DNA of 60,000 nt from Callorhinchus milii (lineage: Eukaryota): positions 106,084,001-106,144,000 of the forward strand of contig NW_024704742.1 in NCBI RefSeq assembly GCF_018977255.1, given 5' to 3'. A program made the position numbers and the translations under genes. The notes below the pieces were generated by a model. That model was not told where the DNA came from, did no database searches, and was given only the letters and a program-made list of their open reading frames with translations. Shown in pieces: positions 2,805-59,941 of this stretch. How positions within the stretch are numbered: the stretch's first letter is position 1; each line of letters starts with the position of its first letter.

Positions 2805-3240
2805 AAGTTCACAAGATTGGTTCAGATGAAGAAAGCCCTTCACCCATCTATCATAAAATCTTAGAATTTTACAGCACAGAAGGAAGCCATTTGGCCTGTC
2901 ATGCCTGTGCCAGCTCTTTGAAAGAGTTGCAAACTAGTCCAACATCCCCGCTCTTACCCCATAGAATCATAGAATCTGATCTCATCCTCCACAATACTCA
3001 TCCAATTGTCTTCCCAACAGAGCATCAAACTGTTCTTTAAATGAGTCCAGTGTATTTATCTCAATCACACTTCCTGGTAACCTGTTCCAGTTTACCCTTT
3101 GGATAAATTTGCCCTCTGGATAAAGAAATTCTTCCTGACGTCTGTCCTGAAATTGCCCTTTCGAACCTGTGTCCTCTTGTTTTACTGTCTCAGTGCATCT
3201 GAAAGTATTGTACTAAGTTTACTTTCTCAATTCCATTTAG
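2805..3240 (-). mobile_element. CR1 3' fragments (composite of at least two 3' ends)
   Basis: acagcacagaaggaagccatttggcc 3'UTR; reverse complement gives TRGH..KGNFRTDVRKNFF and LPGSVIE-like motifs. Confidence 0.75.
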
Positions 3241-3439
3241 GGTGGGTATAGTCAGATTGTGATCAAATATTTTTTCTTTAGAAATAGTGCCAAATCCAAC
3301 AGAATTGTTTGAAATGTCTTTTAATTTTTCAATCTGAGAGGGAAATCAGACTTTTTTGCGGAACTCCATTCTGAAAATAGACTTAGTTGAAACAGCATTC
3401 CAATAAGTCAGATTCACAGACTTCCAGACTATTCCAAAT

Positions 3440-4905
3440 CTTTCTTCCGATGGCTGATGTCTGTCATCGGTCATGGCCAGAAGGATCTCTCTGGGCTCAT
3501 GTCAATGTTGGACAAGTGTACTCATTCAGTGTTCCAGATTGCAACTGTGGTATTTGTCCACAAGTAGGGTGATCCTAATGAGTCCAAGGGATTTCATTAA
3601 TTTCAGTAGTTCTTAAAGTGGTGCTTCAGATAGATACTGGATGTGTATCTTGGAGTTTTGTGGTTTGATCAGGAAAGCTGGCTCACGAGGAATGTATGGG
3701 ACAGGTTGTGACTTTGTATGAGATCACAGAACATTGTAAGGCTAAGGAAACCCCCACCTATGTTGCATTCGTCGACTTCCACGAGGCTATCTGTTTCAGG
3801 TTTTTCTGACATGATTGCGGGGCTTCTGTTTGCAGACGATATTGTACTGCTTGGGGGACGCACACGAGGCCACCCGGTGGAACATGGTGGAAGGCGCCCC
3901 CAAGTGCAGAATCATGGATTTGCATGGCTCAAAAGAAGACATTGAGGGTATTGATTGGAAGATACAAGGGGTATCGGTCCCACATTGATTCTTATCAGTA
4001 CCTGTGGGCAGTGGTGGACACCAACATTTGCCTGGATACTGTCCTGAAGGACCACGCTGAGAAAGGAGAAGGGCCCTCTGGTCATACTTGATCCGTTTCA
4101 AGGAAAGCAAGGTACCAATGCAGGTCAAGCTTGTCGCTTATAAGACCTGTGTACAAACAGTTCTTCTTTTTGGTTCTGAGTTCCTGGCGCAGGAATGCAG
4201 GAATGTTCTGATGCGGTGGAGAGGCTTCCTCCAGCCCATTTATAAAGTCCAGGGTGAAGCGGTGAGGTGGATCTGTGGAAAACATGGGAAGAGGCTGCAG
4301 CGAGGGAGGGTTCTGGCCTATACTGACCTGTCACTGAGCACCCTGGAGACAGAGTTGGCTTCACAGGGGAAAGTCTGCCAAGGCCCCTCACATGAGGATT
4401 TGGATTAAGCAGCTGATGCTGAGTAAACTTCGTACTTGGTATAGGACTTGGACCTCAAGAATATCAAGGTGACTGGCAAGTCACAAGCTGTCCTGTAAAG
4501 GTCCCCCACCATGGTGAAGACAAATGTCTGTCAGATAATTGATTAGAAACTCTAATGTTTTGAGGTGATGGCTGCTGGAAGGCATAACCTGGAGTTCGAG
4601 TTTATGAACATGAATTTATACATTCAGGACCTGGAATCCACCCTCATTGGTTTACAGAAAGATAAGCAGCTGCTTCTAAAGCTCCACACCTTCAACTTTG
4701 GAACCATTGCTTTATGAGAATGGATGTGTGTCCGAGCTGTGGCCAGGGAGGTAGTGGCAATGCTCTCACACATTTCATGCTGAACTGTGTTGTCCACCAG
4801 GAAGCTCGCAGAAAGTTCCTGGTATCTGCCATCCACCTAGTGAGAGCTCAAACTGACTCATGTCAAGTGACCAACTAGTGACCATCCTCTGGGGGGAGGG
4901 AGGCA
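3440..4905 (+). mobile_element. Decayed non-LTR retrotransposon ORF2 (RT plus C-terminal CCHC knuckle), clade distinct from local L2/CR1/L1
   Basis: Ordered motifs across frameshifts: TVVFVHK*GDP, GISLISVVLKV, EECMGQVVTLYEI, YVAFVDFHEA, GLLFADDIVLL, WNM..PKCRIM, YQYL, YKTCVQTVLLFGSE, CPSCG...THFMLNC. Confidence 0.9.
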
Positions 4906-4925
4906 TCCCATTCCAGTAAATATCT

Positions 4926-5016
4926 TAGGAATTTCCATGTACAGGTGGGATGAATGGAACTCTGTTTGGGGTGTATATTCTTAAGTATGGTGACTGGTTT
5001 CTGCATGCGTCAAACC
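4926..5016 (-). repeat. Unclassified ~100-130 bp interspersed repeat, copy 1
   Basis: Reverse complement catgcagaaaccagtcaccatacttaagaatata...catggaaattcct aligns with the copies at 6885, 48915, 54965 and 59467. Confidence 0.7.
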
Positions 5017-6607
5017 AAAGAAAAGACTTCTAGATTAAAAAATTACATTGAGCAATGCCATCAAGTTGTACTCTTTTGTCTTTGTCATAAGCTTGGTACA
5101 TTAATTTATTTCTCGTGTTGAACGTAAAACTGTGACATAACGTAACATGAAGTTGACTTCAGTGGCATCCTCTGGAGAGCATGACTGAAATATTTGCGCA
5201 TCGATGAAGATCAACATCTTATCTTATGGTTGTATGGAGTTTAAGTTATTAAAAGTATTTTTCCATGGCTGCCACCTGCCTCAGCGTCTTTTCCTTCGAT
5301 TAAGAGGTGGAATGAGATGGCCTATTGACTTCTCCACAGTGGTTGTCAAGGCTCATGTACAATTGACTAACCAGAGATACTCTCCTCTGGATAGGGCTAT
5401 TTCCTGGGCAGGTTTTGCTCTTGGTGACCTGGATCTTTGTTGCTGTGAAGCACTTCCTCTGGTGCAGCAGCTGAGAAACAGTGCAGTTCGCTCAATGATG
5501 ACTGACAAATTTGAAGACTGAGAAGTGAACTTAAGCCCTTTAGCTGACAGCCAAGCGTCAGAGACGTTGAGCTGCCAGGATTACTCCATTCTACAATATT
5601 TCCTATATTAGGTATATGGATACATTTCATAAAGATCTCATCAAATGTGCCACCAAATCTTGGCAGGTTTTCAAAACAATGTAACTTTTTTATTATTTGA
5701 CCGGGGCATAATGTTTTTTTCACAAAAGTTGAGCCAAAAATTCTAACGTCTTCAAATTGCTGGTGAACCCAAACAAACCACTATTACATTATTGAAAAGT
5801 GTGAGGAAAGAATGCTTCAGTTTTTAGCCTAATTGTAGATTTCATTTATTGAAAAAAAGAGGTTTCTACTTGCTTTTTAATGAATATAAAGAGAACTGCA
5901 ACACATCACAGTATATGTTTCTCCACTAATATTACAAGGGTGGCAAAAATCCAGTACCATTCTAGTCTCTGCTTCCTTGAGTGCTTACCAACTTCCTGGG
6001 TTATGCTCCAGTATTAATCTCACAAAATACTTTTAATTATGTGACTCCCTAAGGATTCCTTCTCATATGCTAACTTTCATCCCATTATTGTTAGCTGGAT
6101 AATATTCTATTTTTTAAATATATTTTTTTTAATTGGACCTTACTTTTATAAGACAATCTTTCCAATATAACAGCACTAAATAATGAATTGCAGACCACTA
6201 GGCTGACAGGATTTCTAACACTGCAGAGCTATGCTTTTAACCAGGATTAATGTCACACTGGTCACACCATCTGATTCTTACCAATGTTAGCATCCTTTGG
6301 AATCATTCCCAGAATAACCTTTTTGTAGTGAATTAACTAGCTGATTATACACTATTGATTCCAAGCCCTCCACAAAGCTGCTTTCGGAAGGTTTCTGAAA
6401 TTGGGCATCTGCAAAACGCATGCATAAGATCTGCTCCAATTATCATTCTTCATGATTCCTACTTCAAACTGCATCAATTTGGACTAGATGAGAATGGTTC
6501 ATGTGGAGAAAAACACCAGCACAAACTTATTGAGCTGACTGACCTTTTTCCATCCAGTATCAATCAATCATTTTAGGTTAGGCTGGGTACAGATATACGC
6601 TTTATAT

Positions 6608-6884: not shown

Positions 6885-7015
6885 TAGCTGGGTGTCTGAC
6901 ATGCATGGAGACCTATCACAATGCTTAAGAGTATGCAAACTTAAGAGAGTTGCACATATGTATTCCACTTATGCATGGAAATTTCCCTTTGTCTGGCATG
7001 GAATGCATTCTCTCT
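6885..7015 (+). repeat. Unclassified interspersed repeat, copy 2
   Basis: ggtgtctgacatgcatggagacctatcacaatgcttaagagtatgcaaac...catggaaatttcc...ggaatgcattctctc. Confidence 0.7.
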
Positions 7016-7194
7016 CTCCGGAGGACCATATCCTGTTTATCTAATTCCAGAAAGTATTAGGTCATCATGTTGTCTTCATCCACAGGCTATGTACAAGCTA
7101 TCTTATTTGTGGATTTCACTCCATCTATTCTATTTCCCTGGGAAAACTCTGCATAAATACTTACAATAAAATACAATTTACATTTATATAGCAT

Positions 7195-8019: not shown

Positions 8020-8768
8020 GCTCCCTTCACTGTACCATTGATGGGCAAGCTTTCAGACCTTTGCCCCTTTCAGACAGAAATCCCTATGTTTTACACTTTC
8101 TCCCTGTCTTCAAAGCCACCTTAAAACGTATATCTTCAACCGTGCTTTCTTTCCCCTCCTCAGCTCCCTTCCACTCATTTCCCAGCTTGGACTCTGAGTC
8201 AGCTGTGTGATGGTGAAAAGCACTATATAAATGTAAATTGTTGCAGTTGATTGTATGAAGAAAGGTAAATATTTATTAATGGTAAATATTTGTACCATGA
8301 CAGGTTAGAATGTCTTACGCTGTGTTTTCAGTGCTGCAAGCGAAGCCATGTTGCAGAGTTGTATAGGATAATACAGGATGTGGAGCTTGATAGAGGTAGA
8401 GTTCAAAATCTTCGTCCTTACTTTCAAAGTCCTCCAAGGCTTTGCTCCTCCCTATCTCTGTGACTTGCAAACTCTGTATCAACCTGTCCATCCATCATCA
8501 GCAGTCAGACCTTTAGCGTTTGTGCCCCAACTCTTTGGAACTCCATCCCACTATCCCTTCACCTTGCCCCCTCTCTTGCCTCCTTGAAGGCCCATCTTGA
8601 GCCCTCCACTTTGATGTGCCTTCAGTTACCCTCCTAGCCTCCCTGTCCTCCACCCTTCCTGATCCCAACCCCCAGCTTGGGTGCAAATCCTTGACTGTCT
8701 AGTGCTTTGGGAAGTCCTCCTAATGTGAAAGGCACTGTACAAATGTAATTTATTGTTGTTGTTGTTGA
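8020..8768 (+). mobile_element. Two degraded L2 3' fragments (~8020-8245 and ~8390-8768)
   Basis: FKIFVLTFKVLQGFAPPYL; tails gtgaaaagcactatataaatgtaaattgttg and gtgaaaggcactgtacaaatgtaatttattgttgttg. Confidence 0.8.
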
Positions 8769-9695
8769 ACCCTGATTTACACTTCCCATTTAACTTCACA
8801 TTGGACTTGGGCCATTATAAAACAGGCATTTGTTTTCACAGTTTCTGTATGCCCATTGCGATACCTGTCTGCTATATTCCTCCTGCAGCAGGTGTGAATT
8901 ATTGTACAATGTTCCTGACACCATCTCCTCCAGGTTGTGTCAGAATCAATGCTCCAGTGCAATGTAGGCTAGTTCAGCATTGCTTTCCATTTGGCAGATG
9001 ATCACACAAAAAATGGCAGCGATACACCAGCCAACAAAGGTACTGTATAAATGTATCATAATTCATTTTAAGAATTTCAAAAAAAAACTCTTCCAACTGA
9101 TAGGGTAAATGTTCACTGGTCTGGAGATTTATTAACCTTTGGAGAATCACCCCTCTGCTATCTATTCAATTATGGAATACTACAATTAGAAAGCAGTATC
9201 TCACCATTGAGAGCTAAGCTCAATCCTTAATTTACTCATATGACTTACTTTATCACCGCCCTTAGCTGAACAGAAAGGTAATAAACTCCCATGTCAGTAA
9301 CACCAGAGGCCTGACATTTCTCATTGCTTTACTCTTAAGGCCATTGTCTGAAAATTTAAGATTGTGCAGATTTTTGGAAAATCATTAAATTCTGCTTTAA
9401 TTGAGAAGTTGCTTTGCTTTTTTTTACATATGACTTTTAAATGAAGATTAAAATTAAGACTTTTCCAAGATCCAAAAAGAATTTGGGGTCTCGGATTCCC
9501 TGCCACAGCTCCAGGTATAAGAAAAACGATTGTTTGTTAACTAATGATTATTTGTCTGAACCACTAGAGGAAATTGTATCAGCAAATGACCCTTCATCAT
9601 TCTCAAAATATTGACAATTCCTTTCTTCCACATGTCGATTACCCAAATAACACAAAACCAGGAAAACAGTTTCAATACTTCGCTACCCCTTTTGT

Positions 9696-17020: not shown

Positions 17021-19870
17021 AATAACAACAACAACAAGATTACATTTGTATAGCGCCTTTCACGTCTGGAGGATGTCCCAAGGCCCTGGGCAGAGTACAG
17101 CATTTCAGACTCGAGCTGGGGTCAGGGGGGAGAAGGGAGGGGAGGTGAAGGCAGCTGACCAATGGCATGATCGAAAAGGAGCGTCTTGAAATGAGACTTG
17201 AAGAAGGCTAAGGAGGGGGCGAGGCGGAGTGCCTGGGGGATGGAATTCCAGAGGTTGATGGGGCCTGCTCCGTGCCCCCGACCCACCCGCCCTGCTCGCT
17301 CCACCAGCCAACGGTGGGCGGGTTGGTCGGGGGCATGGAGCAGGCCGGAGCTGGCTGAGCGGAGGGAATGGGCGAGTTGGAAGGGGGTTAGGAGGTCACA
17401 GAGATAGGGTGGGGCGAGGCCATGGAGGGCTTTGTATGTGAGGACCAGGGTCTTGAACTGGATCCTCTGAAGGATAGGGAGCCAGTGGAGTGGGGCGAGA
17501 GTGGGGGAGATGGGGTCAGGGAGTTTGGTGCGGGAGAGGACATGGCTGCAGAGTTCTGGATTATCTGCAGCCTGTGGAGGGAAAAGTTGGGAAAGCTGAC
17601 AAACAGGGCATTTGCATAGTGGAGCCTGGAGGTGATGAAGGCATGAACAAGAGTTTCAGCGGCCTGAGAGGTAAGGTAGTGGCGGAGACGGGCGAAGTTA
17701 CGGAGGTGAGGGAAGGCAGAGCGAGTCATGGCTTGAATGTGGGGGAGAAAAGACAGTTGAGGGTTGAACAAGATACTTAGGTTCCTGACTGGCTGGTGAG
17801 TTGTAGTGTGCAACCATGGAGGTTGATGCTACCAGAGCCTGAGGTGCTGAGGCACTGGTGCGAGCCAATCAGGAGAGTCTCAGTCTTGTTCACATTCAAC
17901 TGTAGGAAATTTACCCTCGTCCAGGACTTGATGTCTGACAGGCAGTCTGTGAGGACAGCAGTGGTCCTGGAGTTGAGGGTGGAGGTAGAAAGATAGAGTT
18001 GGTTGTCATCCACATACATGTGGAAGATGACCCCATCTCTGCGGATGATGTCACCAAGGGGGAGCATGTAGATATTAGAGAGGAGAGGGCCAAGGACAGA
18101 GCCCTGGGGGATGCCAGATGTGACAGTGCGGGGGCTGGAGGAGAAACCGTTAGTGGCGACAAAGTGGAGATGGTGAGAGAGATAGAAATTGAACCAGGCA
18201 AGGGCACATCTGTGAAGATTGAGTAAAGTGGAGAGGAGGTGTATGAGGATGGAGTGGTCGACAGTGCCGAAGACAGCAGAGAGGTTGAGGACAACAAGGA
18301 GGCAGAGGGAGCCCTGATCACAGATGTTCAGAATATCATTAGTGACTTTGACCAGTGCTGTTTGTATGCTGTGGGCAGCCGGAAGCCGGATTGGAGGGGT
18401 TCCAAGAGGGAATGGCAAGAGGGAAAGTAGCGGAGCGGGGACGCGAAGACGCGTTCCAGGACCTTGGAGAGGAATGGAAAGTTCAAGATGGGGTCGTAGC
18501 TGGAGAGGAGGGATGAATCCAGGGAAAGGTTTCTCAGGAGGTGGTGATGACGGCTGTTTTTAGGGGGATGGGAACTGAACCAGTGGACAAGGAGAGGTTG
18601 ATGACATCGGACAGGAGAGGGGACAGAAGGTGAAGCTGGGAGACGAGGAGAGAAGTGGGGATTTGATCGAGGGAGCGGGTGGTGGGTTTGAGTTTGCGGA
18701 CAGTCGTGGTGAGAGAGGAGGGAGAGATAAGGTTGAAGGAGTATAGGGGGGGATGGGTGGGAGGTGAGTCATGAGGGAGAAGTGATGTGGGGGTGGCTGT
18801 GGACGGGGCTGAGGGAGCTGAACATATCTTCTCGATTTTAGATTCGAGGAAGTCCAGCATCTCCTCACAGTTGGAGTTTGAGGAGAGGATGGGAGAGGTA
18901 TGGGAAGGTGGACGGAGGAGACAGTTCGTGGTGGAAAAGAGAAGCCTGGGGTTGTCCTTTGCCTCCAAGATAACTTGGAGTAGAAGGAGGATTTGGCAGA
19001 GGCAAGAGTACAGTAGTAGATCTTGGTGTGGTGAAGCTATATCTGCCGATGAACCGTTAGTTTGGATTTGGTCCAGGCACGTTCGGCAGTTTGCACTTGT
19101 GCTTTGAGGGAACGGAGATGGCTGGTGTACCAGGGGGATTTACGGGAGTATGAGGTAGTTCGGGAAGTGAGAGGAGCAAGGGAGTCCAGGTCAAGAGGGT
19201 GGCCACGGTTGTGGTTGGGGGAGTGGATGAGGAGGGAGAGGTTGAGGGAAAAGAGGAGGGAGGAGAAGTCGGCAGAGGTAGAGCAGGAGAGGATGAAGTG
19301 GAGGTTGAAGTCGTCTAAGATTAGGAGATGTTCAGAGCAGAGGGAGAGGGAAGATAGGAGAGTGGAGATGTCCGAGAGGAAGGTGGGGGAAGGCTTGGGG
19401 GGATGGTAATCAAGGAGGATTTTGAGGGAAAGCCTGGAGGGGTGGTAGAGGGTAAGGTGTTCAAAAGAGGGGAAGGTTCCGGAAGAATAAGGGGAAAGGC
19501 TGAGGTGGGACCGGGAGATGAGAGCCATACCACCGCTATGGCTATGCTGTGGGGTTTCATGAAAGGTGTAACCTGGAGGTGTGGCCTCAACTTGTGGGAA
19601 AGTGTCGCCTGGGGTGACCCAGATTTCGGTGAGGGCGAGGATGTCGTTATTTTCCTTGGCGGTGAGGTCATGAATTCTGAGGGACTTGTTGGTTAATGAG
19701 CAAACGTTCTGCAGACCGATGCGGAGGGGACAGTTAGTGGTGGGAGTGTGGGGGGGAATGAGGGGTGGGAGGGGGTGGGCAGACGGGTTGGATGGGGATG
19801 TGAATGAGGGAGGAAAGATTGGCTCTCGTGGGTGAGGGCCGATGGGTCTTCCAGAGAGAGTGGGGGAAGG
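17021..19870 (-). mobile_element. L2 LINE, near-full ORF2 pseudogene (APE endonuclease plus RT) with internal deletion
   Basis: LQNVCSL..DILALTEIW..LLILDDFNLH..RGHPLDL (APE); [30 protein letters not shown] (RT); frameshifted; (CAA)n tail at 17021. Confidence 0.96.
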
Positions 19871-21197
19871 CACAATGCAAATGTAATTTGTTGTTGCTGT
19901 GACTATTTGAACTCACAATACTGCCTTTCAATATCATTTTACAACAACAACAACTTGCATTTATGTGGGATAGCATCTGAGAATGCTGAAAAGGCCACTT
20001 CAGTTTGTTAAACAGTGACCTTGTTAAGCCATAAAATAAAGTTGTCATTACCCAAGTGCTTTTCAGCTGGGTTTAGGTACTATCACAATTCAGAATTGGA
20101 AGGAGAAGTTAGAGGGGGGATTATTTCAGACACACTTTAATCTTGTTCCCTAATTAAGGAATGAAATGTATTTATGAAGACTGTGATTTTGACCTCTATG
20201 AGTTCCTATCGCTATTCGTTGTAATCAAAACATATTTCATATTTAATTTCTCTGCCTGTCAAAGATTATGTTATGTCATACAATCACATTCTGTTTTTTA
20301 CCATGGCGTTTTAAATAATTGGACATTATAATTAAATCTGCCGCTGTCACTTTTCTTGTTAAAAAGATTAGAGAAGCCGGCAGACCTGCCAGTACCCACG
20401 CCTGAGGTGTTCTTATTGTCAATTGCTACCAATCTGTTTGTGAAAGTGCCCTTAAAAACATTGGTGAAAGTTAGCAATTTATAGCGTCATTCAATTATAA
20501 TGACACATTATATTTACAATGTAATAAATCAGCTTTTATTCATAATGTTCTTACGTTAATGGCACCAGAGTAGAAAATGTACGTTTTGAAATTTACAGAA
20601 GTTAAACAATATTCTTTCCCAGCATTGACTTTTACATATAGTCATAAACCCATTAAGATGAAAGAATCCCTAACTTTTTGTTATAAATTCAAAATAAAAA
20701 TCTTGGAAGTCAACAGAGATGTGTGGGCTCTAAACCACTGACTTATAAAATAACTGTTTGTTAAGTGTGCAGCTGGTTCAGACTATTGATTTTTGTGAAC
20801 AATCTTGGATTTTGTGACTGAAATACTTGCCAAGAGAAAAAGGATAAATCATTCTTTCTGAGATTTGATATTGAGTTTAGCTAGGCCTGATGTTCTGATA
20901 CTTAAATGGTTTTGTCAACAAATACGCTTTTGTGTTTGTTGAGTTTCTGCCAAACAGATAAGAATAGCTGACAATAGGCCAAGGAAGATGCACCTGGTCT
21001 TGAAGATGCACCTGGTGTTGTTGGTCTCAGTAAAGTCTGATCCCAACCACTCTAGACTAGCAACAAGTCTAATAGGAATTGTATCAAAGCCCACGCAAAT
21101 CATAGCAAGGGGGATGTCTTTGTAACATCTCAAACACAACTAACAATGTTGCCTTTGCTTATATAATGCTATCTGAGAAGAAATGGCTTAAGTAGAG

Positions 21198-21510
21198 ATC
21201 ACAAGAACACAAGATTGGTCTGGATGAAGAAGGTCCTTCAGCCGCCAGATCTCGCCCCTCCAGAATACCCACCCTATGCCCCCCATCAAGTTGCTTTTTA
21301 AATGCGTCTAACGTCTTGGCCTCCACAACCTTTCCTGGCAACCTGTTCTACTCGTTGATTATCCTCTACAAAAAGAAAAATGTGCTACTATCTGTTCTGA
21401 AATTGCCCTTTACAACTCTAAATCCTGTGTCCTCTTGTTCTACTGTCATGATAAATCCTAAACTATCGATCTGTGTTTAGTTTTTCATTTCAAATTTTAC
21501 ACACCTATGT
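21198..21510 (-). mobile_element. CR1 3' fragment
   Basis: LPGKVVEAKTLDAFKKQLD; acaagaacacaagattggtctggatgaagaaggtcc tail. Confidence 0.82.
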
Positions 21511-28177: not shown

Positions 28178-28494
28178 GGAGTCCTGTAGCTCAGTGGTTA
28201 GAGCACTCGCTTTGCAAGTGAGAGACCTGAGTTCAATTCCAGGCAGGGCGAAACCTTGGGCAAGTTTCCTTACTCCACACATCTAATAATAATCCCTCCA
28301 AAAAACTAAACAATAATAAATTGTTCATTTTCTATCCATGACTGTTTGTGGGACACTGCTGTGCATAATTGGCTGCCGCATTTGCCCACAAATATACAGT
28401 CAATTCATTTTACAGTATATTCTGTGAAGTTCTTTGGAATGTCCAGAAGACGTGAAAAGCGCTATATCAAATGCAAGGATTATTATTATTATTA
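28178..28494 (+). mobile_element. Full-length tRNA(Ala-TGC)-derived SINE, short subfamily, L2-type tail
   Basis: A box tagctcagtggttagagc, anticodon arm ctcgc-tttgcaa-gtgag, B box gagttcaattcc, ccttgggcaagt CORE-like start, (TTA)n tail. Confidence 0.95.
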
Positions 28495-35156: not shown

Positions 35157-36449
35157 AACAACAACAACAACAACAAGATTCCATTTATAAAGTGCCTTTC
35201 ACGTCAGGAGGACGTCCCAAGGCGCTGCACAGTTGGGTCAGGACCCGAGCAGGGGGGAAATGGTCAGGGTGAGGGAGGGAAGGGAGGGAGCGAGGAGGGG
35301 GAAATGGTCAGGGTGAGGGGAGGGAAGGGAGGGAGCGAGGAGGGGGAAGAGAGTCGAGAGGGGAGCTGAAGGCTCGGTCAAAGAGAAAGGTTTTGAGACC
35401 GGCCTTGAAGGAGGAAGGGAGGAAGCGGCGAAGGCACTGGGGGATAGAGTTCCAGAGCCTGGGGGCTGAGAGGCTGAAGGCCCGACCACCGATGGTAGGG
35501 CGATTGGGGCGGGGGACGTGGAGCAGACCGGAGCCGGAGGAACGGAGGGTACGGGCAGGTAGGTAGGGGGATAGTAGGTTGGAGAGGTAGGAGGGAGCAA
35601 GGCCGTGAATGGCCTTGTAGGTGAGGATGAGGATCTTGAAATCAATCCTCTGGGGGATGGGGAGCCAGTGGAGGCGAGCGAGGGTGGGAGTGATGTGGTC
35701 CCGAAGCCTGGTGCGGGACAGTACACGAGCTGCAGAGTTCTGAATGACCTGCAGCTTGTGGAGGGAGGTGGCGGGAAGGCCGGCGAGGAGAGAGTTCCCA
35801 TAGTCCAGCCTTGAGGTGACAAAGGCGTGGACCAGGGTTTCAGCAGCGTGAGAGGTGAGGTAGTGCCGTAGTCTGGCGATGTTCCGGAGGTGATGGAAGG
35901 CGGTGCCAGTTGTGGTGCGGATGTGAGGGAGAAAGGACAGCTCAGGGTCGAACAAAACGCCGAGGTTCCTGACTGGCTTTGAGAGGTGGAGAGTGCAGCC
36001 TTGGATGCTGATGGTGTCAGTGCCTGAGGTGCGGAGGCGCTGACGTGAGCCAATCAGGAGGGCCTCGGTTTTTCGCACGTTGAGCTGAAGAAAGTTGTCT
36101 CTCGTCCAGGACTCGATGTCGGACAGGCAGCTGTCAGGACATCGGTGGTCGTGGAGTTGAGAGTAGAGGAGGAAAGGTAGAGTTGGGTGTCATCCGCATA
36201 CATGTGGAAGTTAACTCCATGTCTGCGGATGATGTCACCGAGGGGGAGCATATAGAGGGTGAAGAGGAGGGGACCGAGGACAGAGCCCTGAGGGACACCA
36301 CATGAGACAATGCGGGGGGTGGAGGAGAAGCCATTTGTCGAGACAAAGTGAAGACGGTGAGAAAGGTACGACCTAAACCACTCAAGGACAGTGCCTTGAA
36401 GGTTGAGGTGGGAGGACAAGCGGTGGAGTAGGATAGCGTGGTCGACCGT
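35157..36449 (-). mobile_element. Young 5'-truncated L2 LINE (RT C-terminal part)
   Basis: [29 protein letters not shown] and a 256-aa open C-terminal frame (RLDYGN..LHWLP..FKIL); CpG-rich; (CAA)n tail. Confidence 0.97.
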
Positions 36450-36464
36450 ATTTAACTATATGAT

Positions 36465-38439: not shown

Positions 38440-38945
38440 TGCGGTCAGGTTGCACCGAGAATACTATGGACAATTCTGGTCTGCGTTACAATTAGGGGTG
38501 TGCTCAGGCCCTAGAGCCATTGCAACAGAAAGTAATTACAATGATCCTCAGTGTTAAAGGAATGAACCATGAGCAACAGTTAGGCAAGCTAGGGTTCTTT
38601 AGTCTTGAAAGGAGGCATCTCAAAAGGGACTTTATACAGGTGTACAAGATTTTAAATGGTTTGAGAAAGCAAAACCAGAACAATGCTTTGGGATGCAGTA
38701 AGACAAGAGGACAGAGGTTTAGAGTTGCAAAGGGCAATTTCAGGAAAGACATTAGGATTTTTTTCTTACCTCAGAGGGTAATTAACAACTGGAACAGGTT
38801 ACCAGGAAAGGTGGTTGAGGTTAAGGCCAGGACACTGGACTAATTTAAAAAAACAGCTTGATGCTGTTATGGGAAGATTATAAGGTCTGGAGGGATGAGA
38901 TCAAATGGCTGAAGGGCTTTCTTCATGTGTCCAAATCTTTCATTT
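38440..38945 (+). mobile_element. CR1 3' fragment
   Basis: LGFFSLERRHLKRDFIQVYKILNG...TRGQ..KGNFRKDIR..RVINNWNRLPGKVVE. Confidence 0.9.
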
Positions 38946-39260: not shown

Positions 39261-39581
39261 GGAGTCCTGTAGCTCAGTGGTTAGAACACTCGCTTTGCAA
39301 GCGAGAAATCTGAGTTCAATTCCAGGCAGGGCGAAACCTTGGGCAAGTTTCCTTACTCCACATGCCTAATAATAATCCCTCCAAAACCAAAAATAATAAT
39401 AAAATTGGTCATTTTCAATCTACGACTGTTTGTGGGAAGTTGCTGTGCGCAATTGGCTGCCGCGTTCGCCCACAAATATACAGTCAATTCACTTTACAGT
39501 GTGTTCTGTGAAGCGCTTTGGGACGTCCTCCTGACGTGAAAAGCGCTATATCAAATGTAAGGATTATTATTATTATTATTA
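39261..39581 (+). mobile_element. Full-length tRNA-derived SINE, short subfamily
   Basis: Closely similar to 28178-28494 from the tRNA head to the (TTA)n tail. Confidence 0.95.
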
Positions 39582-41877: not shown

Positions 41878-43955
41878 AGGATCAGCGTGGATGCTGATGC
41901 TGCCATTGCCTGAGGTGCGGAGGCGCTGGTGCAAGCCAATCAGGAGGGCCTCGATTTTGCTGACATTCAGCTATAGAAGGTTAGCTCTCATCCAGGACTT
42001 GATGTCTGACAGACAGTCTGTCAGGACAGCAGTTGTCCTGGAATCGAGGGTGGAGACAGAAAGATAGAGTTGGTTGTCATTCGCGTACATGTGGAAGTTG
42101 ACCCCATGTCTGCGGATGATGTTACCAAGGGGGAGAATGTAGAGGTTGAAGAGGAGGGGACCAAGGACAGAGTGCTGAGGAACACTGCACGAGACTGTGC
42201 AGGGACTGGAAGAGAAACCATTGCTTGAGACAAATTGGAGATGGTGTAAGAGATAAGACCTGAACCATTCAAGGACACAACCTTGAAGTTTGAGGTGAGA
42301 GGAGAGGTGGTGGAGGAGGATGGAGTACTCCACGGTATCGAAGCCAGCAGAGAGGTCGAGGAAAATGAGGAGGCAGAGGGAGCCCTGGTCACAGATAGAC
42401 AGGATGTCGTTTGTGAACTTGACCAGAACAGTTTCCGTGCTGTGAGTAGCACAGAAACCCAATTGGAGGGGCTCATGAAGGCAGTGGAAGGAGAGGAAGG
42501 AGTGAAGCTGGGAAGCAATGACTCTTTCAAGGACCTTGGAAAGAAAAGGGAGGTTGGAGAAGGGCCAATAGTTAGAAAGCAGGGATGGGTCCAGGGAAGG
42601 TTTTTTCAGGATGGGGGATGATTATAGCAGTTTTTGGGAGATGGGAACAGTGCCAGATGATAGGGAGAGATTGCTGATGTTGGGGAGTAGAGGGGAGAGG
42701 AAGTGGAGCTGGCTGGTAAGGAGAGGGGTGGGGATGGGGTCAAGTGTGCACGTGATGTGTTTCAAGCTGGACATAGTGGTGATGAGAGAGGAGGGGTAGA
42801 CAGGTTCAAAGATGTGAAGGGAGGGAGGGATGGGTAGAGGTCCGAGGATGGGGGGAGATGAGGAGGGACTGGGCGGAGGCAGCTGAATGGATCTTCTCGA
42901 TATTGGACTCGAGGAAATTCAGCATCTCTTCACCGTCAGCATTTGAGGAGAGAATGGGCGAGGCGGGGGAGGGTGGATGGAGGAGCCAAATAATGGTGGA
43001 AAATAGGAGCCTGGGGTTGTCCTTCGTCTCCAAGATTATCTTGGAGTAGAAGGACAATTTGGTAGAGGCGAGGGCAGAGCAGTAGGTTTTGATGTGATCC
43101 AGCCAAATCTGCCAGTGCACAGTTAGATCAGATTTGAGCCAGGTGGTTTCAGCAGCCCACACCTGACCCTTGAGGGAACGGAGGTGGTTGGTGTACCAGG
43201 GTGAGGTTCTTGAGTAGGAGGCGTTTTTTGGAGGTGAGGGGGCAAGGGCATCAAGATTGGTGGAGGGGGAGCTGTGGAGGAGAATGAACGAGGAGGATAA
43301 ATCAGTGCCGGAGGTAGGCCAGAGTGGGAATAGTTCAGATGACTCCAGGTCAGCGGAGAGGGATTGCGGGGAGATCTTTTTGGTGATGGTGGGGAGAGGG
43401 ATTGAAGAGTTAAAGGGGATGAAATGATGATCAGAGATGGCTTTGTCTGTGATTGAAATAAGTGGCCATGAACGTGGGTGGCTGAGTGGATGTGGAGGGA
43501 AAGGTTGTGAGAGCAGAAGAGAAAGGAGAAGTCCGAGGAGATAGAGCAGGAGGGGGTGAAGTGAAGGTTGAAGTCACCGAGGATGAGAAGGCATTCAGAA
43601 CAGAGGCAGAGGTAAGCTAGGAGGGTGGCGACATCAGGAATGAAGGTGGGGGAGGTTTGGGGTGGGCGGGGCGGTAAATGAGGAGAATTTTGAGGGAAAG
43701 ATTGGAGGGATGGTAGAGTATAAGGTGCGCAAAGGAGGGGGAATGAGCCAGAGGAGTAAGAGGATCGAGTAAGTGAGGTCCTGGAGATGAGGGCCACACC
43801 ATTGCCATGGTGGTTGGGACGGGGGTATGGTGGTAGGTGTAGCCGGGTGATGTGGCATCAGTGAGGGGGAAAGTGTCGCCTGGGGTGATCCAGGTTTCAC
43901 TGAGAGCCATGATATCGATATTTTCACCAATGATGAGGTCACTATGATGAAGTCA
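41878..43955 (-). mobile_element. L2 LINE ORF2 pseudogene (APE plus RT), 3' end missing
   Basis: MALSETWI..LLILGDFNLHF (APE); [39 protein letters not shown] (RT). Confidence 0.95.
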
Positions 43956-44349
43956 TGACCTTCTGACCCAGAGGTGAGATTACTACCAATTGAGCAAAGC
44001 TGACTGGAAGGACATGCCCATATCCCCATTTTCTGAATGAGTGATTTACCACAAGCCTTACAATGATTCAATTTCTACACAATGACCTTTGGTATAGTGC
44101 CTGGATTTTCTTTTTGATCTGCTCAAATTGAACCCAGTACAAAATCCACCAAGAGTTGTCATTTCATTCTCACAATAACTTCTTCCACCTCCTCTTCACT
44201 AGTAAATATCTCTTAAAGCTGTCTTAAACCTCATATTCTTTGTTACACTGATATAGTTTTCAGGTGTACAATCCCTTGAAGAATCCCTTTTATATTCTGT
44301 CATCTTGGGTTACTTATATCTTTCATACACGAAGGTATGGAAAACCGAG

Positions 44350-46860: not shown

Positions 46861-48914
46861 ATAATAATTAATTAATTAAATGTTCAAGAGTTAATTGACC
46901 AATTTAATGGATGGAGAATATTTCTATATTTCATGAAACTGTTTTTTGTCCAAACATTATTGAACTCTAGTAATAGTTTAGAGACATTAATATCAATGTT
47001 ATTGAATAGTTGTTCCTTTTTAAAAAAATGTTTCAGCTGGTTATCAAAATATTTTAAGCTGCTGTTCACCAAATATCTTGCTTTCATTATTCATTGATTA
47101 TTTCCAAGTTATCTGAATTGAACTGTGCCTGAAAGGCCGATGTCCGCAATACAAATGATACTCAATTGCATCGTCCTTCAGTATGTGTAATGAAAAATAA
47201 TGTAACCTTCGTTTTGTGCATTATTTTGCTGAGGTTCTAAAAGGGCCGTGAAGATTTGTAAAAACAGAAATATTAAAGAACAAATTGAACTGCAGATAGG
47301 AGTCGAATCATCACAGTTAGATAAAAGCACTGAATGTTATAAATTGAAGGGATTAAATTTTTTCTACTTTCAATTGACTTGCCGAGTCTAAATTGAAAAG
47401 GTGGATCAATAATCACCTGAACTAGGATTCCTTAGTAAGACCACTTCTGTAATAGATGTGCTGAACTCAGTCCTTTGTCTAGTCCAATTAGAGCTTTACT
47501 TGAGCTCTCTTCCCTCACCAAGAGACTTTTCTGCTACAAGTTAATGGAAGATTTTGTTTTTCCTTCGCTGGGAGCAAAGGGATGAGTGCCAAAGTCTTTA
47601 TTTAGTCCACTTATCACACAGACTGCCTCAACATACTGTGTGTGTAGCTTTTTGCTTGACAGCTACTTTTGTGTCAAGAGATATTGGCGCGTGTCCAATG
47701 CTGAACTGATCAAATCCATTCCCTGAATACATATGAAAAATGTGCCACCACCTACTTCAGCTAAATGAATTCCAAGAACGGTATATTTCCATGAAGGATA
47801 AGGCCTTAGAATAAATGGTATTATTTTAGGAGATATATTCCTACTTGAAATGATATTTCGGTAAATTCCACCTTTGAGCCAAATATGTTTTTTCTAAGTT
47901 GATGGGGTCACAATTAAAAGGTGATATGTAACACTGGAGTCATGTTTGTTTGTAGAATATAATTTCCTGGTGATCTACTGGGGGTGCTTGTTTTGCTTAA
48001 CTGGCAGTATAATGTGGAGATACATTCAGTTCTCTAGTAGTGTCATGGAGCTACACATCCAAACTCCCCGGTAATCTGTTGAGGGCTATTTCCGTGGAGG
48101 ATTGGGAAGGCTCTCCCTGCTTTGTGTAGATATTTGCTTTGGCCTAAAGATTTGGTCTTAGATACATGTGTGGCACTTAAATTGTATTCAAGTAAAATGA
48201 TGCATGACAGCTGCTTGGCTGAAGAGGATTGCTTTCAGTGTGCTTTTATTGCAAAAGAATAGCCATATCGCTTAGATTCTGAATCCCGAGAAACAGGCAG
48301 AGGTTTTTGCATGCAGTTGCTTAATTCAGAGATGCCCTCTGATAAAGTATTGTTACAAAAAGTCAAATTGTCAGAGATAATTGATGTATTAAGGTGTTAA
48401 AATGTTACTGTCTCTGATCTTATCTTCTGTGGATGTTGTTAGGCATCTTCCCTATAGAAGCCCAGAAAAGCTCTTTGCTGAGAAGGGAAATTGATTGCAT
48501 TTTTTCCAGAGCTCACAGACTTGCACTGGAGCCAAGTTAACATTTATTTCGATGAAAAATTACTCAGCGAGATAGCATAAAAAGAGATTTCTTTTTTTCC
48601 TTTTAACAGGAAGAATCAACAGGCATGGACTTTGTCATTATGTGCTTATTTTAAAAGAAGCTGTCTTTTGGGCTGGAGCACACCCAGAGGGTTTGGCTGC
48701 TACCTTTTATCTCTGAAGTTCCTTGAATGAATACTGAAAGTTTAGAACATCTGTGCAGAGGTGATAAAGATAACCTGTACAATGTGCATAGAAATAATGT
48801 GCATAGAAATGTACAATATAACCATTGCACTTTTCAATATAATGCACTACATTGTAACGTTATTGTGGACTAAGTTTAAATTGACTTTATTTGGGGGGGG
48901 GGGGGGGGGGTGTC

Positions 48915-49035
48915 AGTCAGGTGTCACATGGGAAACCCATCATCATGCTTAAGAGTATCCAAACCAGATTGGGTTCCATACCTGCCATCTACACATGGAA
49001 ATTCCTGAGTCTGGAATGCAATGCACATTCTCTCC
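48915..49035 (+). repeat. Unclassified interspersed repeat, copy 3
   Basis: catgggaaacccatcatcatgcttaagagtatccaaaccagattgggttcca...catggaaattcctg..ggaatgcaatgc. Confidence 0.75.
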
Positions 49036-49649
49036 CTGCTGACATAATTCTGGAGAATATTAGGCATTGGTTGATAAGAGCCAAGGCTTAGGAACCCCAG
49101 AGTGTGCATTGGAGGTACTGCTACCAAAAACCACATAGCTTGCCATTCAGAGTGCACTCTGGCAAGCCTTCAGTTGTTTATCCAGCTAGGACCACTCTAC
49201 CTATTAGGGCTTTGGCTTGAAGGGTCAATAGAAGCTGAGTGGGAAGTATCCCTGCCCCCAATATTTTTTTTATTTTCATAGGATGAAATTACTATGCATC
49301 CACATTTTATTTTTACTCACTAACCTGTTAAAGGTTTGAGAAGAGTGGATTTATAGGACATTATTATTAGAACTTGAATAATTTAAGTGGGTTTGTTTTA
49401 TACCTTAAGATTCTTCTTTTATAATATTTCTCCTGTGATGCCTTCACAGCCAATACAACCTTGTTTATGTGCACATCTGAGTCTGTGAGGGAAGTTCACA
49501 AAATCATTTCAATTATAAGATCACACAATTTTCTGTCTCAATGCTCTGAAATATGAGCTCCTGGAGGTGCCACAGTAGCTGTCCTTGCCAAGTTTCAACC
49601 AAATAGAAACAAGCAGATGTTTTCTCTACTTCCAATGTCAGGGCTTTGA

Positions 49650-52444: not shown

Positions 52445-52752
52445 TAATAATAATAATCCTTGCATTTGACATACCACTTTTCACGACTTCTAGACGTCCC
52501 AAAGCGCTTCACAGAATATACTGTAAAGTGAATTGACTTTATATTTGTGGGCGAAATGCGACAACCAAATTGCGCACAGCAGTCATAAACAATCATGGAT
52601 TGAAGTGACCAATTTATTATTTTTTTTTCTTGAAGGATTATTATTAGGTGTGTGGAGTAAGGAAACTTGCCCAAGGTTTCGCCCTGCCAGGTATCGAACC
52701 CAGGTCTCTTCCTTGAGAGATGAGTTCTCTAACCACTGAGCTACAGGACCCC
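52445..52752 (-). mobile_element. Full-length tRNA-derived SINE, short subfamily
   Basis: Reverse complement ggggtcctgtagctcagtggttagagaactc...gggttcgatacc...(TTA)n. Confidence 0.93.
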
Positions 52753-54363: not shown

Positions 54364-54964
54364 TTCAACAAAGCAGCACTCTCCTAGCATTGAACAGGAA
54401 TGTCAGCCTAGACTATATGAGTTCAAGTGTGTTTTGAAATATCTTTCAATCCAGACTTTTGATTAGTTTTAGTGCCTAAACCTAACTAAAAAGTCCTGGC
54501 CACCTCTGTGAGTGAGAGCATTTTTTTCTCTGTTGGTTGAATAACTTTACAGATATGAAAGGTTTGAGTTTACTTGGGAAGCACCATAAGATCACACAGC
54601 AAAGTTGTCAGATCACTGGAGAATCACTAGATAATTGAATCTGCAGGAAATCAGAGATCGATTGGAAAAAGATGGACAAATATGACACAGCAACTCACAG
54701 ACTAGTAAATAATTCATATCTTTCCAATTAACCATGAGAATCTGCGGCTGTGGTAGATATTAACTTTTATTTGAGCACTGTCCTTCAGGACTGCATTGAG
54801 AAGAGGTGAAATTCATTCTCATCTTTTCAGTGACAGCAAAGCCCCTGTGCCATGTTGGTGGTATACAAGACACATGTCACAACAATTGTCGAAACTTGTT
54901 GCTCAAGCTCCATACTTCCAACTAGTGGAACCATCGCTCAATTGATTGCCTTCAGTGAAAGAAC

Positions 54965-55072
54965 ACGCATTACATTCCACACGCAGGGAAATTTCCATAG
55001 ATGTTGGCATATAAATGTGGACCTCTGTTTGGTTTGGGTAGTCCTATGCGTGACAATGGGTTTCCACATACA
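54965..55072 (-). repeat. Unclassified interspersed repeat, copy 4
   Basis: Reverse complement gtggaaacccattgtcacgcataggactacccaaaccaaacagaggtccac...tatggaaatttccctg..ggaatgtaatgc. Confidence 0.65.
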
Positions 55073-55789
55073 AATAATGATGAAAATGGCAAAAGTGTGG
55101 GAAACATGTAACTATTTATCAATGAAACATTACTTTAACCTTGGTCATCGTAATCCAACAAAAAAGTAGATAATGGGAATAAATTCATCTTGCTGCTAAG
55201 TGTGGAGCCCCACATCATCAAAGTCACTACATTTAACAGGAAGAGTAATTTCTAGGTCCTAATGTCTTATTGGAGAGAATATTAGGATAAGAAACAAATG
55301 ATGACAAATGGCTGACAGCACCATGAGCAGATGATGAAATGAATCATTTGTGAAAAATGTATGTATAGTAAAGAAGATGAAAGTAAATGAAACGCAGTGA
55401 CACCTAATAAAAGAATTGGCTATATTTCAACTTCAGCAGTGTTCAAGTCTAGAATTAGCTTTGATTCACAGCAGTGTGAATCACATTAAAATGTGCAATC
55501 GAATATATTAAACAGATTTATTTTGCACAAGGGATCTAGAATTATATCTAATTTCTACTTTGCCTCCATGAATTCCTCCATTTTTCTGTGATATACCCAG
55601 TGCTGTCTCATTGCAATTTTCTGTTATGCTACTTATATAAATAAACTAGAGTACTATCGGCACACAGCTGCTAAAAAGCACAACTCAAAAGGTGGCTGGA
55701 GTTTGAGTTTAAGTTTAAAGTTTCTGGCAACACATTCTGGGCTGTGGGTGACATATTTCTATTTTGACTGGTCAAGGTTCATAAATTAT

Positions 55790-59466: not shown

Positions 59467-59586
59467 GTTAGGCGGGTATCTGACACATGCAGAAAATCAT
59501 CACCATGCTTAAGGTATCCAAACCAGACTGAGCATTCCACATATGTATGTCACTTCCATATGGAGATTTCCTGGGAATGAAAATGC
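59467..59586 (+). repeat. Unclassified interspersed repeat, copy 5
   Basis: gttaggcgggtatctgacacatgcagaaaatcatcaccatgcttaaggtatccaaaccagactgagcattccac...atggagatttcctgggaatg. Confidence 0.75.
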
Positions 59587-59621: not shown

Positions 59622-59941
59622 ATAATAATAATAATAATAATCCTTGCATTCGATACAGTGATTTTCACGTCTTCTTGACATCTCAAAGCGCTTCACAGAA
59701 TAGACTGTGAAGTGAATTGACCGTATATTTGTGGGTGAAACGCAGCAGCCAATTGTGCACAGCAGTGTCCCACAAACAGTTGTGGATTGAAAATGACCAA
59801 TTTATTATTGTTTTGTTTTGGAAGGATTATTATTAGGCGTGTGGAGTAAAGAAACTTGCCCAAGTTTTTGTCCTGACTAGAATTGAACCCAGGTATCTCG
59901 CTTGCAAGGCAAGAGCTCTAACCACTGAGCTACAGGCCTCC
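59622..59941 (-). mobile_element. Full-length tRNA-derived SINE, short subfamily
   Basis: Reverse complement gaggcctgtagctcagtggttagagctcttgccttgcaagcgagatacctgggttcaattc; (TTA)n tail. Confidence 0.93.

What the first reader, a model, noticed from the sequence alone, without database searches (positions are those of the whole stretch)
3440..4905. Fossil non-LTR retrotransposon of an atypical clade; possible horizontal transfer from a fungal/microsporidian-type lineage
Seen: a collinear RT-to-zinc-knuckle protein readable across frameshifts: SVMARRI...TVVFVHK*GDP..GISLISVVLKV..EECMGQVVTLYEI..PTYVAFVDFHEA..[deletion removing the QG..SP motif]..IAGLLFADDIVLL..WNM..KCRIM..IQGVSVP..YQYL..KVPMQVKLVAYKTCVQTVLLFGSE..MRIWIKQL..RTWTSRISR*L..LLKLHTFNF..CPSCG...THFMLNC. 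This differs from the L2, CR1 and L1 fragments in the window. L2 and CR1 lack such a C-terminal CCHC knuckle. Inference from memory: the EEC..Q..TLYE, GLLFADD and TWI..L...TW.S...RW signature resembles LINE ORF2 proteins annotated in early-diverging fungi and microsporidia rather than common vertebrate LINEs. It may be an undescribed chondrichthyan family or a relic of parasite-to-host transfer. The many clean internal deletions may mean it was amplified as a non-autonomous derivative.
Basis: partly seen in the sequence, partly recalled or inferred. Interest (0 to 1): 0.75.

Follow-up and report, generated by a model that had tools for sequence, protein, structure and literature searches.

The report
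Dead algal/fungal-type LINE in a vertebrate
This is a broken copy of an old, multi-copy jumping gene whose named relatives so far come from algae, fungi and gymnosperms rather than animals, but nothing ties it to a fungal or microsporidian donor, so transfer between kingdoms is possible and unproven.

Summary
The fossil is real. It spans 3432-5023, lies between a decayed 14-bp target-site duplication, and aligns collinearly to a family profile at 175 bits against 15-25 for controls. It is 5'-truncated, with five deletions (one removes the RT core), nine frameshifts and four stops. It belongs to an old family with many copies in this organism and four more in the window. Its relatives are single-ORF LINEs built RRM-like domain, AP endonuclease, RT, CCHC, with a Q.GF...EEC motif. 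Of 158 listed hits, 26 carry an organism name: red and brown algae, Smittium, a basidiomycete, Taxus, Ginkgo and one MAG label. None is an animal or a microsporidian. Identity is only about 30%. Trees put it inside this clade but not nested among the Smittium sequences (p=0.035), and a basal position is not rejected (p=0.42). So 'atypical clade' is supported, 'fungal/microsporidian donor' is not, and the visible deletions look copy-specific. Repbase and Dfam were not available, so a catalogued name (Inkcap, Deceiver, RTEX) is untested. The scan's index held no look-alike on other DNA.

The parts
3418..3431 (+). left target-site duplication (14 bp, 12 of 14 match the right copy)
   Evidence: a match this good arose in 3.5% of 2000 random wide windows and 0.2% of 2000 narrow ones; the profile alignment independently starts at 3433
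3432..5023 (+). 5'-truncated, internally deleted LINE copy, 1592 nt
3433..3540 (+). linker between endonuclease and RT (profile 496-531), followed by a deletion of about 116 codons
   Evidence: best score for this block in the whole window, 16.2 bits against 8.9 for the next
3541..3788 (+). RT N-terminal part (K.GD, GISLIS, EEC, F.DF), with one stop, one frameshift and an 8-codon gap; followed by the 79-codon deletion of the RT core
3790..3868 (+). catalytic-motif block GLLFADD, followed by an 11-codon deletion
3869..4500 (+). RT C-terminal part and post-RT region; longest open stretch 4061-4405
4720..4875 (+). CCHC zinc knuckle (CPSC...H....C)
   Evidence: 113 of 120 listed relatives carry it
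4876..5023 (+). probable last codons of the ORF (to about 4985) and a short 3' UTR ending A-rich
   Evidence: the match to the family C-terminus is by eye and weak
5024..5037 (+). right target-site duplication
54640..55080 (+). second, more decayed copy that lacks about 4175-4670 and 4712-4900 of the main copy
   Evidence: the left edge is approximate
48902..49043 (-). 3' tail copy of the same family
   Evidence: nhmmer E 1e-10; 74% identical over 78 nt
6895..7034 (-). 3' tail copy of the same family
   Evidence: nhmmer E 3e-8; 69%
59479..59576 (-). 3' tail copy of the same family
   Evidence: nhmmer E 2.5e-4; 69%

Best explanation
The locus is a dead copy of an extinct, once abundant APE-type LINE family. 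It does nothing now. Inferred from established LINE biology: an element-encoded endonuclease nicked the target, the RT copied the RNA from its 3' end and stopped early, leaving a 5'-truncated insert between 14-bp target duplications. The copy then lost about 700 nt in five deletions and gathered frameshifts, stops and CpG decay. The parent was most likely a single-ORF element (RRM-like domain, endonuclease, RT, CCHC) of a broad eukaryotic clade marked by Q.GF...EEC. The fossil's lineage is a deep, separate branch of that clade. Its route into this vertebrate is unresolved. My odds: ancient transfer from some non-vertebrate donor about 0.5 (of which a fungal or microsporidian donor about 0.15), vertical retention with loss elsewhere or unseen animal members about 0.4, other 0.1.
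For: Shown: collinear match and controls; target duplication; many diverged copies with 3' bias, summed contig depth 25-85 at 3404-3655 and 8500-9400 at 4748-4831 against 7-13 for contigs of this locus; other copies carry extra letters at 3981-3984 and 4366, where this copy shifts frame; window copies 65-75% alike pairwise and CpG o/e 0.29, like the window's 0.32; element inside the EEC clade at SH-aLRT 96 and 99 in a 78-row RT tree; single long ORF in 4 of 4 full-length loci examined; N-terminal domain modelled at pLDDT 91, closest to GUCT and RRM domains at Z 9.9 and 9.1.
Against: The fossil lacks its 5' half, so the parent's architecture is inferred from relatives at about 30% identity. The backbone is a polytomy and the element's neighbours change between trees; the careful bootstrap tree did not finish. 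The Atlas's nearest cluster to P0002 was mostly arthropod among 20 members with a known phylum (feature score only). ACT domains score nearly as well as RRMs. Contig depth is not a copy number.
Confidence: 0.8

Rival explanations
1. The element was transferred from a fungal or microsporidian parasite into the host lineage.
For: 19 Smittium proteins and one Sanghuangporus protein are in the family. No named animal member among 26 named hits. Grouping with the wider Smittium-containing set (p 0.26), the Sanghuangporus set (0.27) or the AT-rich set L005/L007/L009 (0.10) is not rejected. Microsporidia-animal exchange of transposons is published (PMC4202319, title and passages seen; the trees described in those passages cover LTR and DNA elements).
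Against: No microsporidian among the named hits. Nesting with the Smittium core is rejected (p 0.035). Full-length identity to Smittium mucronatum is 24%, at the family median of 25% and below the best unnamed relatives at 30% (62). Red algal, brown algal and gymnosperm members are as close.
Confidence: 0.15
2. The lineage is an ancient clade inherited vertically from early eukaryotes and animals, lost or unannotated in most animals, and possibly already catalogued for this genome under RTE-X, Deceiver or 'Unknown'.
For: A basal position in the family is not rejected (p 0.42). The clade spans red algae, brown algae, plants and fungi on a star-like backbone. Copies are old. Five copies in 60 kb means a repeat library would probably hold it (inference). 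An RTE-X fossil of gnathostome age is published, and such fossils make patchy LINE clades explicable by descent (PMC9004415, section 9).
Against: Animal LINE proteins are plentiful in NCBI (my knowledge), yet 0 of 26 named hits are animal. Grouping with two rows that I call animal RTEX-like from recalled motifs is rejected (p 0.035).
Confidence: 0.4
3. This deleted form was itself amplified in trans as a non-autonomous derivative.
For: The copy lacks the RT core yet has a target duplication. Depth of about 100-110 at 3740-3823 shows other copies overlap the junction bin. An earlier, unchecked note reports a deleted L2 lineage amplified in this genome (e1-7812854).
Against: The second window copy has different deletions, in regions the main copy keeps. 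The 7 joints listed inside the element each stand in only 1-2 contigs (15 of 236 joints shown). Depth at the 5' block is only a few times single-copy.
Confidence: 0.2
4. The sequence is contamination or an assembly artefact.
For: Family members do occur as misbinned contigs in prokaryote MAGs.
Against: It is flanked by host-type repeats, has a target duplication, and is held at 0.94-0.97 of words by four samples. Contigs from three studies cover the left junction with host DNA. CpG decay matches the host.
Confidence: 0.01

Closest known systems
Unnamed single-ORF LINEs of Galdieria yellowstonensis (KAK4527526.1), Ectocarpus, Pylaiella, Smittium, Sanghuangporus, Taxus chinensis (KAH9290949.1) and Ginkgo
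   Same: EEC motif, GLLFADD, post-RT motifs, CCHC knuckle; one clade with the element
   Different: Only 22-36% identical; many are intact, the element is dead; hosts are not animals
L001 (JGI metagenome contig, host unknown)
   Same: Sister to the element in all four trees that held it (support 95-97; 68 and 69 are the same tree); shares the AVRW..GK.GKRL..GR motif; 40-45% identical over the best stretch
   Different: 31% over 234 columns; itself frameshifted and lacks the knuckle; two fossils may attract each other in a tree
RTEX (RTE-X) clade
   Same: APE-type RT in the same part of the tree as rows I label RTEX-like from recall; C-terminal CCHC (recalled); known from vertebrates (PMC5753468, PMC9004415) and from a brown alga (PMC4421812)
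   Different: RTEX has a separate ORF1 (PMC3905857 passages); this family has one ORF (89). The RTEX-like rows form their own clade (97) apart from the EEC clade (99). No labelled RTEX sequence was available.
Inkcap and Deceiver clades (Novikova et al. 2009)
   Same: Fungal non-LTR clades reported from mushrooms (PMC4427930, PMC3411680, PMC9674265 passages); this family has a basidiomycete member
   Different: Not comparable: the paper is not held and no sequence was available
L2 and CR1 of the same window
   Same: APE-type LINEs, 5'-truncated copies
   Different: 8-13% identity to L2 (65); the L2 C-terminus shows no CCHC; L2 groups apart in the tree. CR1 was not compared by alignment.

Membership tests
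APE-type non-LTR retrotransposon (LINE) | non-LTR RT homology | tested here: met
   relatives carry PF00078
APE-type non-LTR retrotransposon (LINE) | AP endonuclease upstream of RT | tested here: inconclusive
   lost from this copy by 5' truncation; present in relatives (PF03372)
APE-type non-LTR retrotransposon (LINE) | 5' truncation, A-rich 3' end, target-site duplication, no LTRs | tested here: met
EEC single-ORF clade (working name, mine) | Q.GF...EEC motif (94 of 120 listed relatives) | tested here: met
   EEC present; the Q.GF part falls in an 8-codon gap
EEC single-ORF clade (working name, mine) | RT groups with the clade | tested here: met
   SH-aLRT 96 and 99, quick LG+G4 tree of 78 rows; a basal position is not rejected
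EEC single-ORF clade (working name, mine) | one ORF with a fused N-terminal RRM-like domain | not testable with these tools
   absent from the truncated copy; no genome held; shown only for relatives
RTEX / RTE-X | RT clusters with labelled RTEX references | tested here: inconclusive
   no labelled references; grouping with two recall-labelled rows rejected at p 0.035 (78)
RTEX / RTE-X | separate ORF1 | tested here: inconclusive
   not met in 4 of 4 full-length relatives; cannot be seen in the fossil
Inkcap / Deceiver | RT clusters with the reference elements | not testable with these tools
   paper not held; no sequences
L2 | RT groups with L2 | tested here: not met
Vingi / Ingi / Nimb / Proto2 / L1-Tx1 | RT clusters with labelled references | not testable with these tools
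   no labelled references; rows that look like L1/Tx1 by recalled motifs fall far from the element (75)
Horizontal transfer from fungi or microsporidia | nesting among donor sequences with support | tested here: inconclusive
   Smittium core rejected; wider fungal sets not rejected; never recovered in a free tree
Horizontal transfer from fungi or microsporidia | patchy vertebrate distribution | not testable with these tools
   the run search finds only near-identical DNA; all 8 holders were organism A

The most novel reading that the evidence does not exclude
An unnamed, eukaryote-wide clade of single-ORF LINEs with a fused RRM-like domain, otherwise confined to algae, fungi, gymnosperms and protists, crossed into an early cartilaginous-fish lineage and amplified to thousands of copies: a cross-kingdom LINE invasion of a vertebrate that is missing from repeat catalogues.
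Probability: 0.2. Interest if true: 0.75.

Novelty: new variant of a known kind. Interest (0 to 1): 0.42.

Why it matters
The copy itself is inert. The family matters because it would add a LINE lineage to the vertebrate list whose named relatives are all non-animal, and because it is abundant enough to date and trace across sharks, rays and chimaeras. That would give a direct test of ancient transfer against long vertical persistence. The single-ORF layout with an RRM-like domain fused ahead of the endonuclease is a further point for LINE classification if the clade is unnamed.

Tried and rejected
No whole genome was held, so copies could not be counted or aligned. Pfam on the three frames: 0 hits. 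Word-based search with the 70-residue EEC piece: 0 of 3 candidates passed. Atlas search with 4067-4405: unnamed clusters only, recognition below threshold. No RNA holder listed. Viral contigs: 0 of 154 pattern matches confirmed. Metagenome scan with P0001: 1 of 86, its own contig. The careful IQ-TREE run did not finish in two calls. The 3' end folds no better than shuffles, z 0.09. No target duplication was found for the 54.6 kb copy. No host exon: 122 open stretches outside repeats gave 2 weak Pfam hits below cut-off. Foldseek gave no match at E<=0.001 for the N-terminal domain. Ten literature searches listed no description of this family in a vertebrate; I judged most listed papers by title and abstract start, the library lacks most subscription papers and Repbase Reports, and no supplements were read, so this is weak. 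The SVMARRI reading frame was rejected for the 5' block.

Full report
Observation. Pfam saw nothing in the raw frames and a word-based search with the EEC piece found nothing. An exhaustive phmmer search with frame 3872-4717 returned two proteins at E<=0.001: P0001 (209 aa, 45%) and P0002 (1342 aa). P0002 carries endonuclease and RT domains and matches the element collinearly from 3585 to 4812. With P0002 as query, 349 relatives were found and 120 listed. A profile of 121 of these proteins aligned to the element across frameshifts at 175 bits; the reverse complement, the reversed sequence and 8 shuffles gave 15-25.

Anatomy. The alignment runs from 3433 (profile position 496) to 4866 (position 1198). 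It shows deletions of 116, 8, 79, 11 and 9 codons plus small gaps, nine frameshifts and four stops. Every spanning relative keeps each of the five segments (114 of 114, 120 of 120 three times, 119 of 119). The 79-codon gap removes the RT core with the G.RQG.P.SP motif, so the copy cannot encode a working RT. A 14-base repeat with 12 matches lies at 3418-3431 and 5024-5037. Alone it is modest (3.5% of 2000 random wide windows), but the protein match starts two bases after it and read depth falls to background after about 5080. The insert is therefore 3432-5023. The last codons probably run to about 4985, leaving a short A-rich 3' end (judged by eye).

It is host DNA and multi-copy. Eight of 24 listed runs hold the stretch, four at 0.94-0.97 of words, all organism A. 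Contigs from three studies cross the left junction; X9's differences are mostly C>T and G>A, which I read as bisulfite data. At 80% likeness, 5650 and 5678 contigs were laid in X1 and X3 on 2900-5400, a count that includes an unrelated repeat at 2900-3240. Summed depth inside the element rises from 25-85 at the 5' end to 8500-9400 over the knuckle, against 7-13 for contigs of the locus itself. Depth is not a copy number, but over 100 separate contigs show other letters at 4748-4845. Other copies carry extra letters at 3981-3984 and 4366, where this copy shifts frame. The window holds four more copies. They are 65-75% alike pairwise over about 78 nt, and the element's CpG ratio is 0.29, like the window's 0.32 and below 0.47-0.94 in five relatives. 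The family is old and long resident.

Deletions. The copy at 54.6-55.1 kb lacks two regions that the main copy keeps. Seven joints inside the element are listed, each in one or two contigs; only 15 of 236 joints were shown. Deletion is thus common in this family and, where visible, private. Whether the main copy's large junctions are shared could not be read from the truncated tables. A single amplified non-autonomous derivative is not shown.

The family. Four full-length loci each hold one ORF of 1299-1553 codons; three end in poly(A). Of 120 listed proteins, 94 have Q.GF...EEC and 113 a C-terminal CCHC. No RNase H domain appeared in 15 scanned. A conserved domain of about 85 residues precedes the endonuclease. 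Its model (pLDDT 91) has the ferredoxin-like order of strands and helices and is closest to GUCT (Z 9.9, rmsd 3.6, 77 aligned) and RRM domains (Z 9.1, rmsd 2.4, 75 aligned), with ACT domains just behind. RRM domains are typical of LINE ORF1 proteins (PMC3905857, passages), so a fused ORF1-like RNA-binding domain is my inference. Of 158 listed hits, 26 carry an organism name: Galdieria, Ectocarpus, Pylaiella, Smittium, Sanghuangporus, Taxus, Ginkgo and one MAG label that is most likely a misbinned eukaryotic contig. None is animal or microsporidian. 132 are unnamed. The Atlas's nearest cluster to P0002 was mostly arthropod among 20 members with a known phylum, a feature score without alignment that may reflect generic LINE likeness but counts against assuming absence from animals.

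Phylogeny. Over about 420 columns the element is 30% identical to its best full-length relatives, 24% to Smittium mucronatum and 22% to Sanghuangporus; the median is 25%. It is 8-13% identical to window L2 copies. In a 78-row RT tree with outgroups it falls inside a 37-row EEC clade (SH-aLRT 99), apart from L2 and from rows that I label RTEX-like or L1/Tx1-like from recalled motifs. Its only stable neighbour is L001, another decayed copy from a metagenome contig of unknown host (95-97). AU tests on 35 rows: nested with the Smittium core p 0.035; with two RTEX-like rows p 0.035; with the wider Smittium set 0.26; with the Sanghuangporus set 0.27; with the AT-rich set 0.10; basal to the family 0.42. 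These were quick LG+G4 trees, the groups were named after trees had been seen, and seven rows's pool were merged or dropped by length filters only as the scripts state (rows under 150 filled columns were left out). The two rejections are therefore marginal. The careful tree did not finish.

How it worked. Shown: truncation, target duplication, 3'-biased copies, decay. Inferred from established LINE biology: target-primed reverse transcription by a single RRM-endonuclease-RT-CCHC protein. The deletions arose either by template jumps during insertion or by later loss; I favour independent events per copy. On origin, the absence of named animal members leans toward transfer from some non-vertebrate source (about 0.5). 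The deep branch, the star-like backbone and the many unnamed hits keep vertical persistence close behind (about 0.4). A specifically fungal or microsporidian donor gets about 0.15.

Comparison with what is known. Repbase's clade list and the human relics of RTEX and Vingi are in PMC5753468 (passages). An RTE-X fossil of gnathostome age is in PMC9004415 (passages and section 9, part 1). RTEX is said to have a proper ORF1, unlike RTE (PMC3905857, passages), which the relatives here lack. A brown alga has an element called RTEX-1 (PMC4421812, passages), so automatic tools may file this clade as RTE-X. Inkcap and Deceiver are mushroom clades known to me only through citing passages (PMC4427930, PMC3411680, PMC9674265); the source paper was not held. 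PMC4007536 (passages) describes a similar unresolved case, vertebrate chromoviruses nested weakly among fungal ones. PMC4202319, PMC4350176 and PMC10294476 (passages) and PMC8232201 (reference and legend hits only) gave no account of this family. No supplements were read; they could hold labelled sequences that settle the clade name.

Verdict. A real, dead LINE copy from an old multi-copy family that belongs to a clade so far named only from non-animals. The atypical-clade reading holds. The fungal or microsporidian transfer reading is unproven and too narrow. Interest 0.42.

Noticed in passing
L003:602-895 and the N-termini of P0002, P0004, P0008 and others: The family carries a conserved RRM/ferredoxin-like domain fused in frame ahead of the AP endonuclease in a single ORF.
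   Followed up: partly
L002-L081: 80 loci in GTDB prokaryote genome records encode eukaryotic-type LINE RTs of several kinds, apparently misbinned contigs; one is annotated as a Gammaproteobacteria protein (RMH19190.1).
   Followed up: partly
P0128, P0140: Taxus and Ginkgo members form a supported pair (99), and no angiosperm was among the named hits: a patchy plant distribution.
   Followed up: no
P0122: One family member has a Ulp1-type protease domain inserted after a partial RT.
   Followed up: no
L005, L006, L007, L009: AT-rich (30-33% GC) subfamily with QFGF and CPCC variants of the motifs; host unknown.
   Followed up: partly
window 28180-28251, 39263-39334, 52679-52750, 59868-59939: tRNA-like matches, probably heads of an abundant SINE whose 3' part recurs many times in the window.
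   Followed up: no
window 17100-20070, 35240-36455, 41900-44070 (minus strand): Long L2 copies with endonuclease and RT remnants, used here as outgroups.
   Followed up: partly
window 2900-3240: An unrelated high-copy repeat lies just left of the element, with relatives at 21284-21491 and 38653-38877; probably a CR1 tail.
   Followed up: no
L001: The closest relative found is itself a frameshifted fossil without the knuckle, on a 1059-nt metagenome contig.
   Followed up: partly
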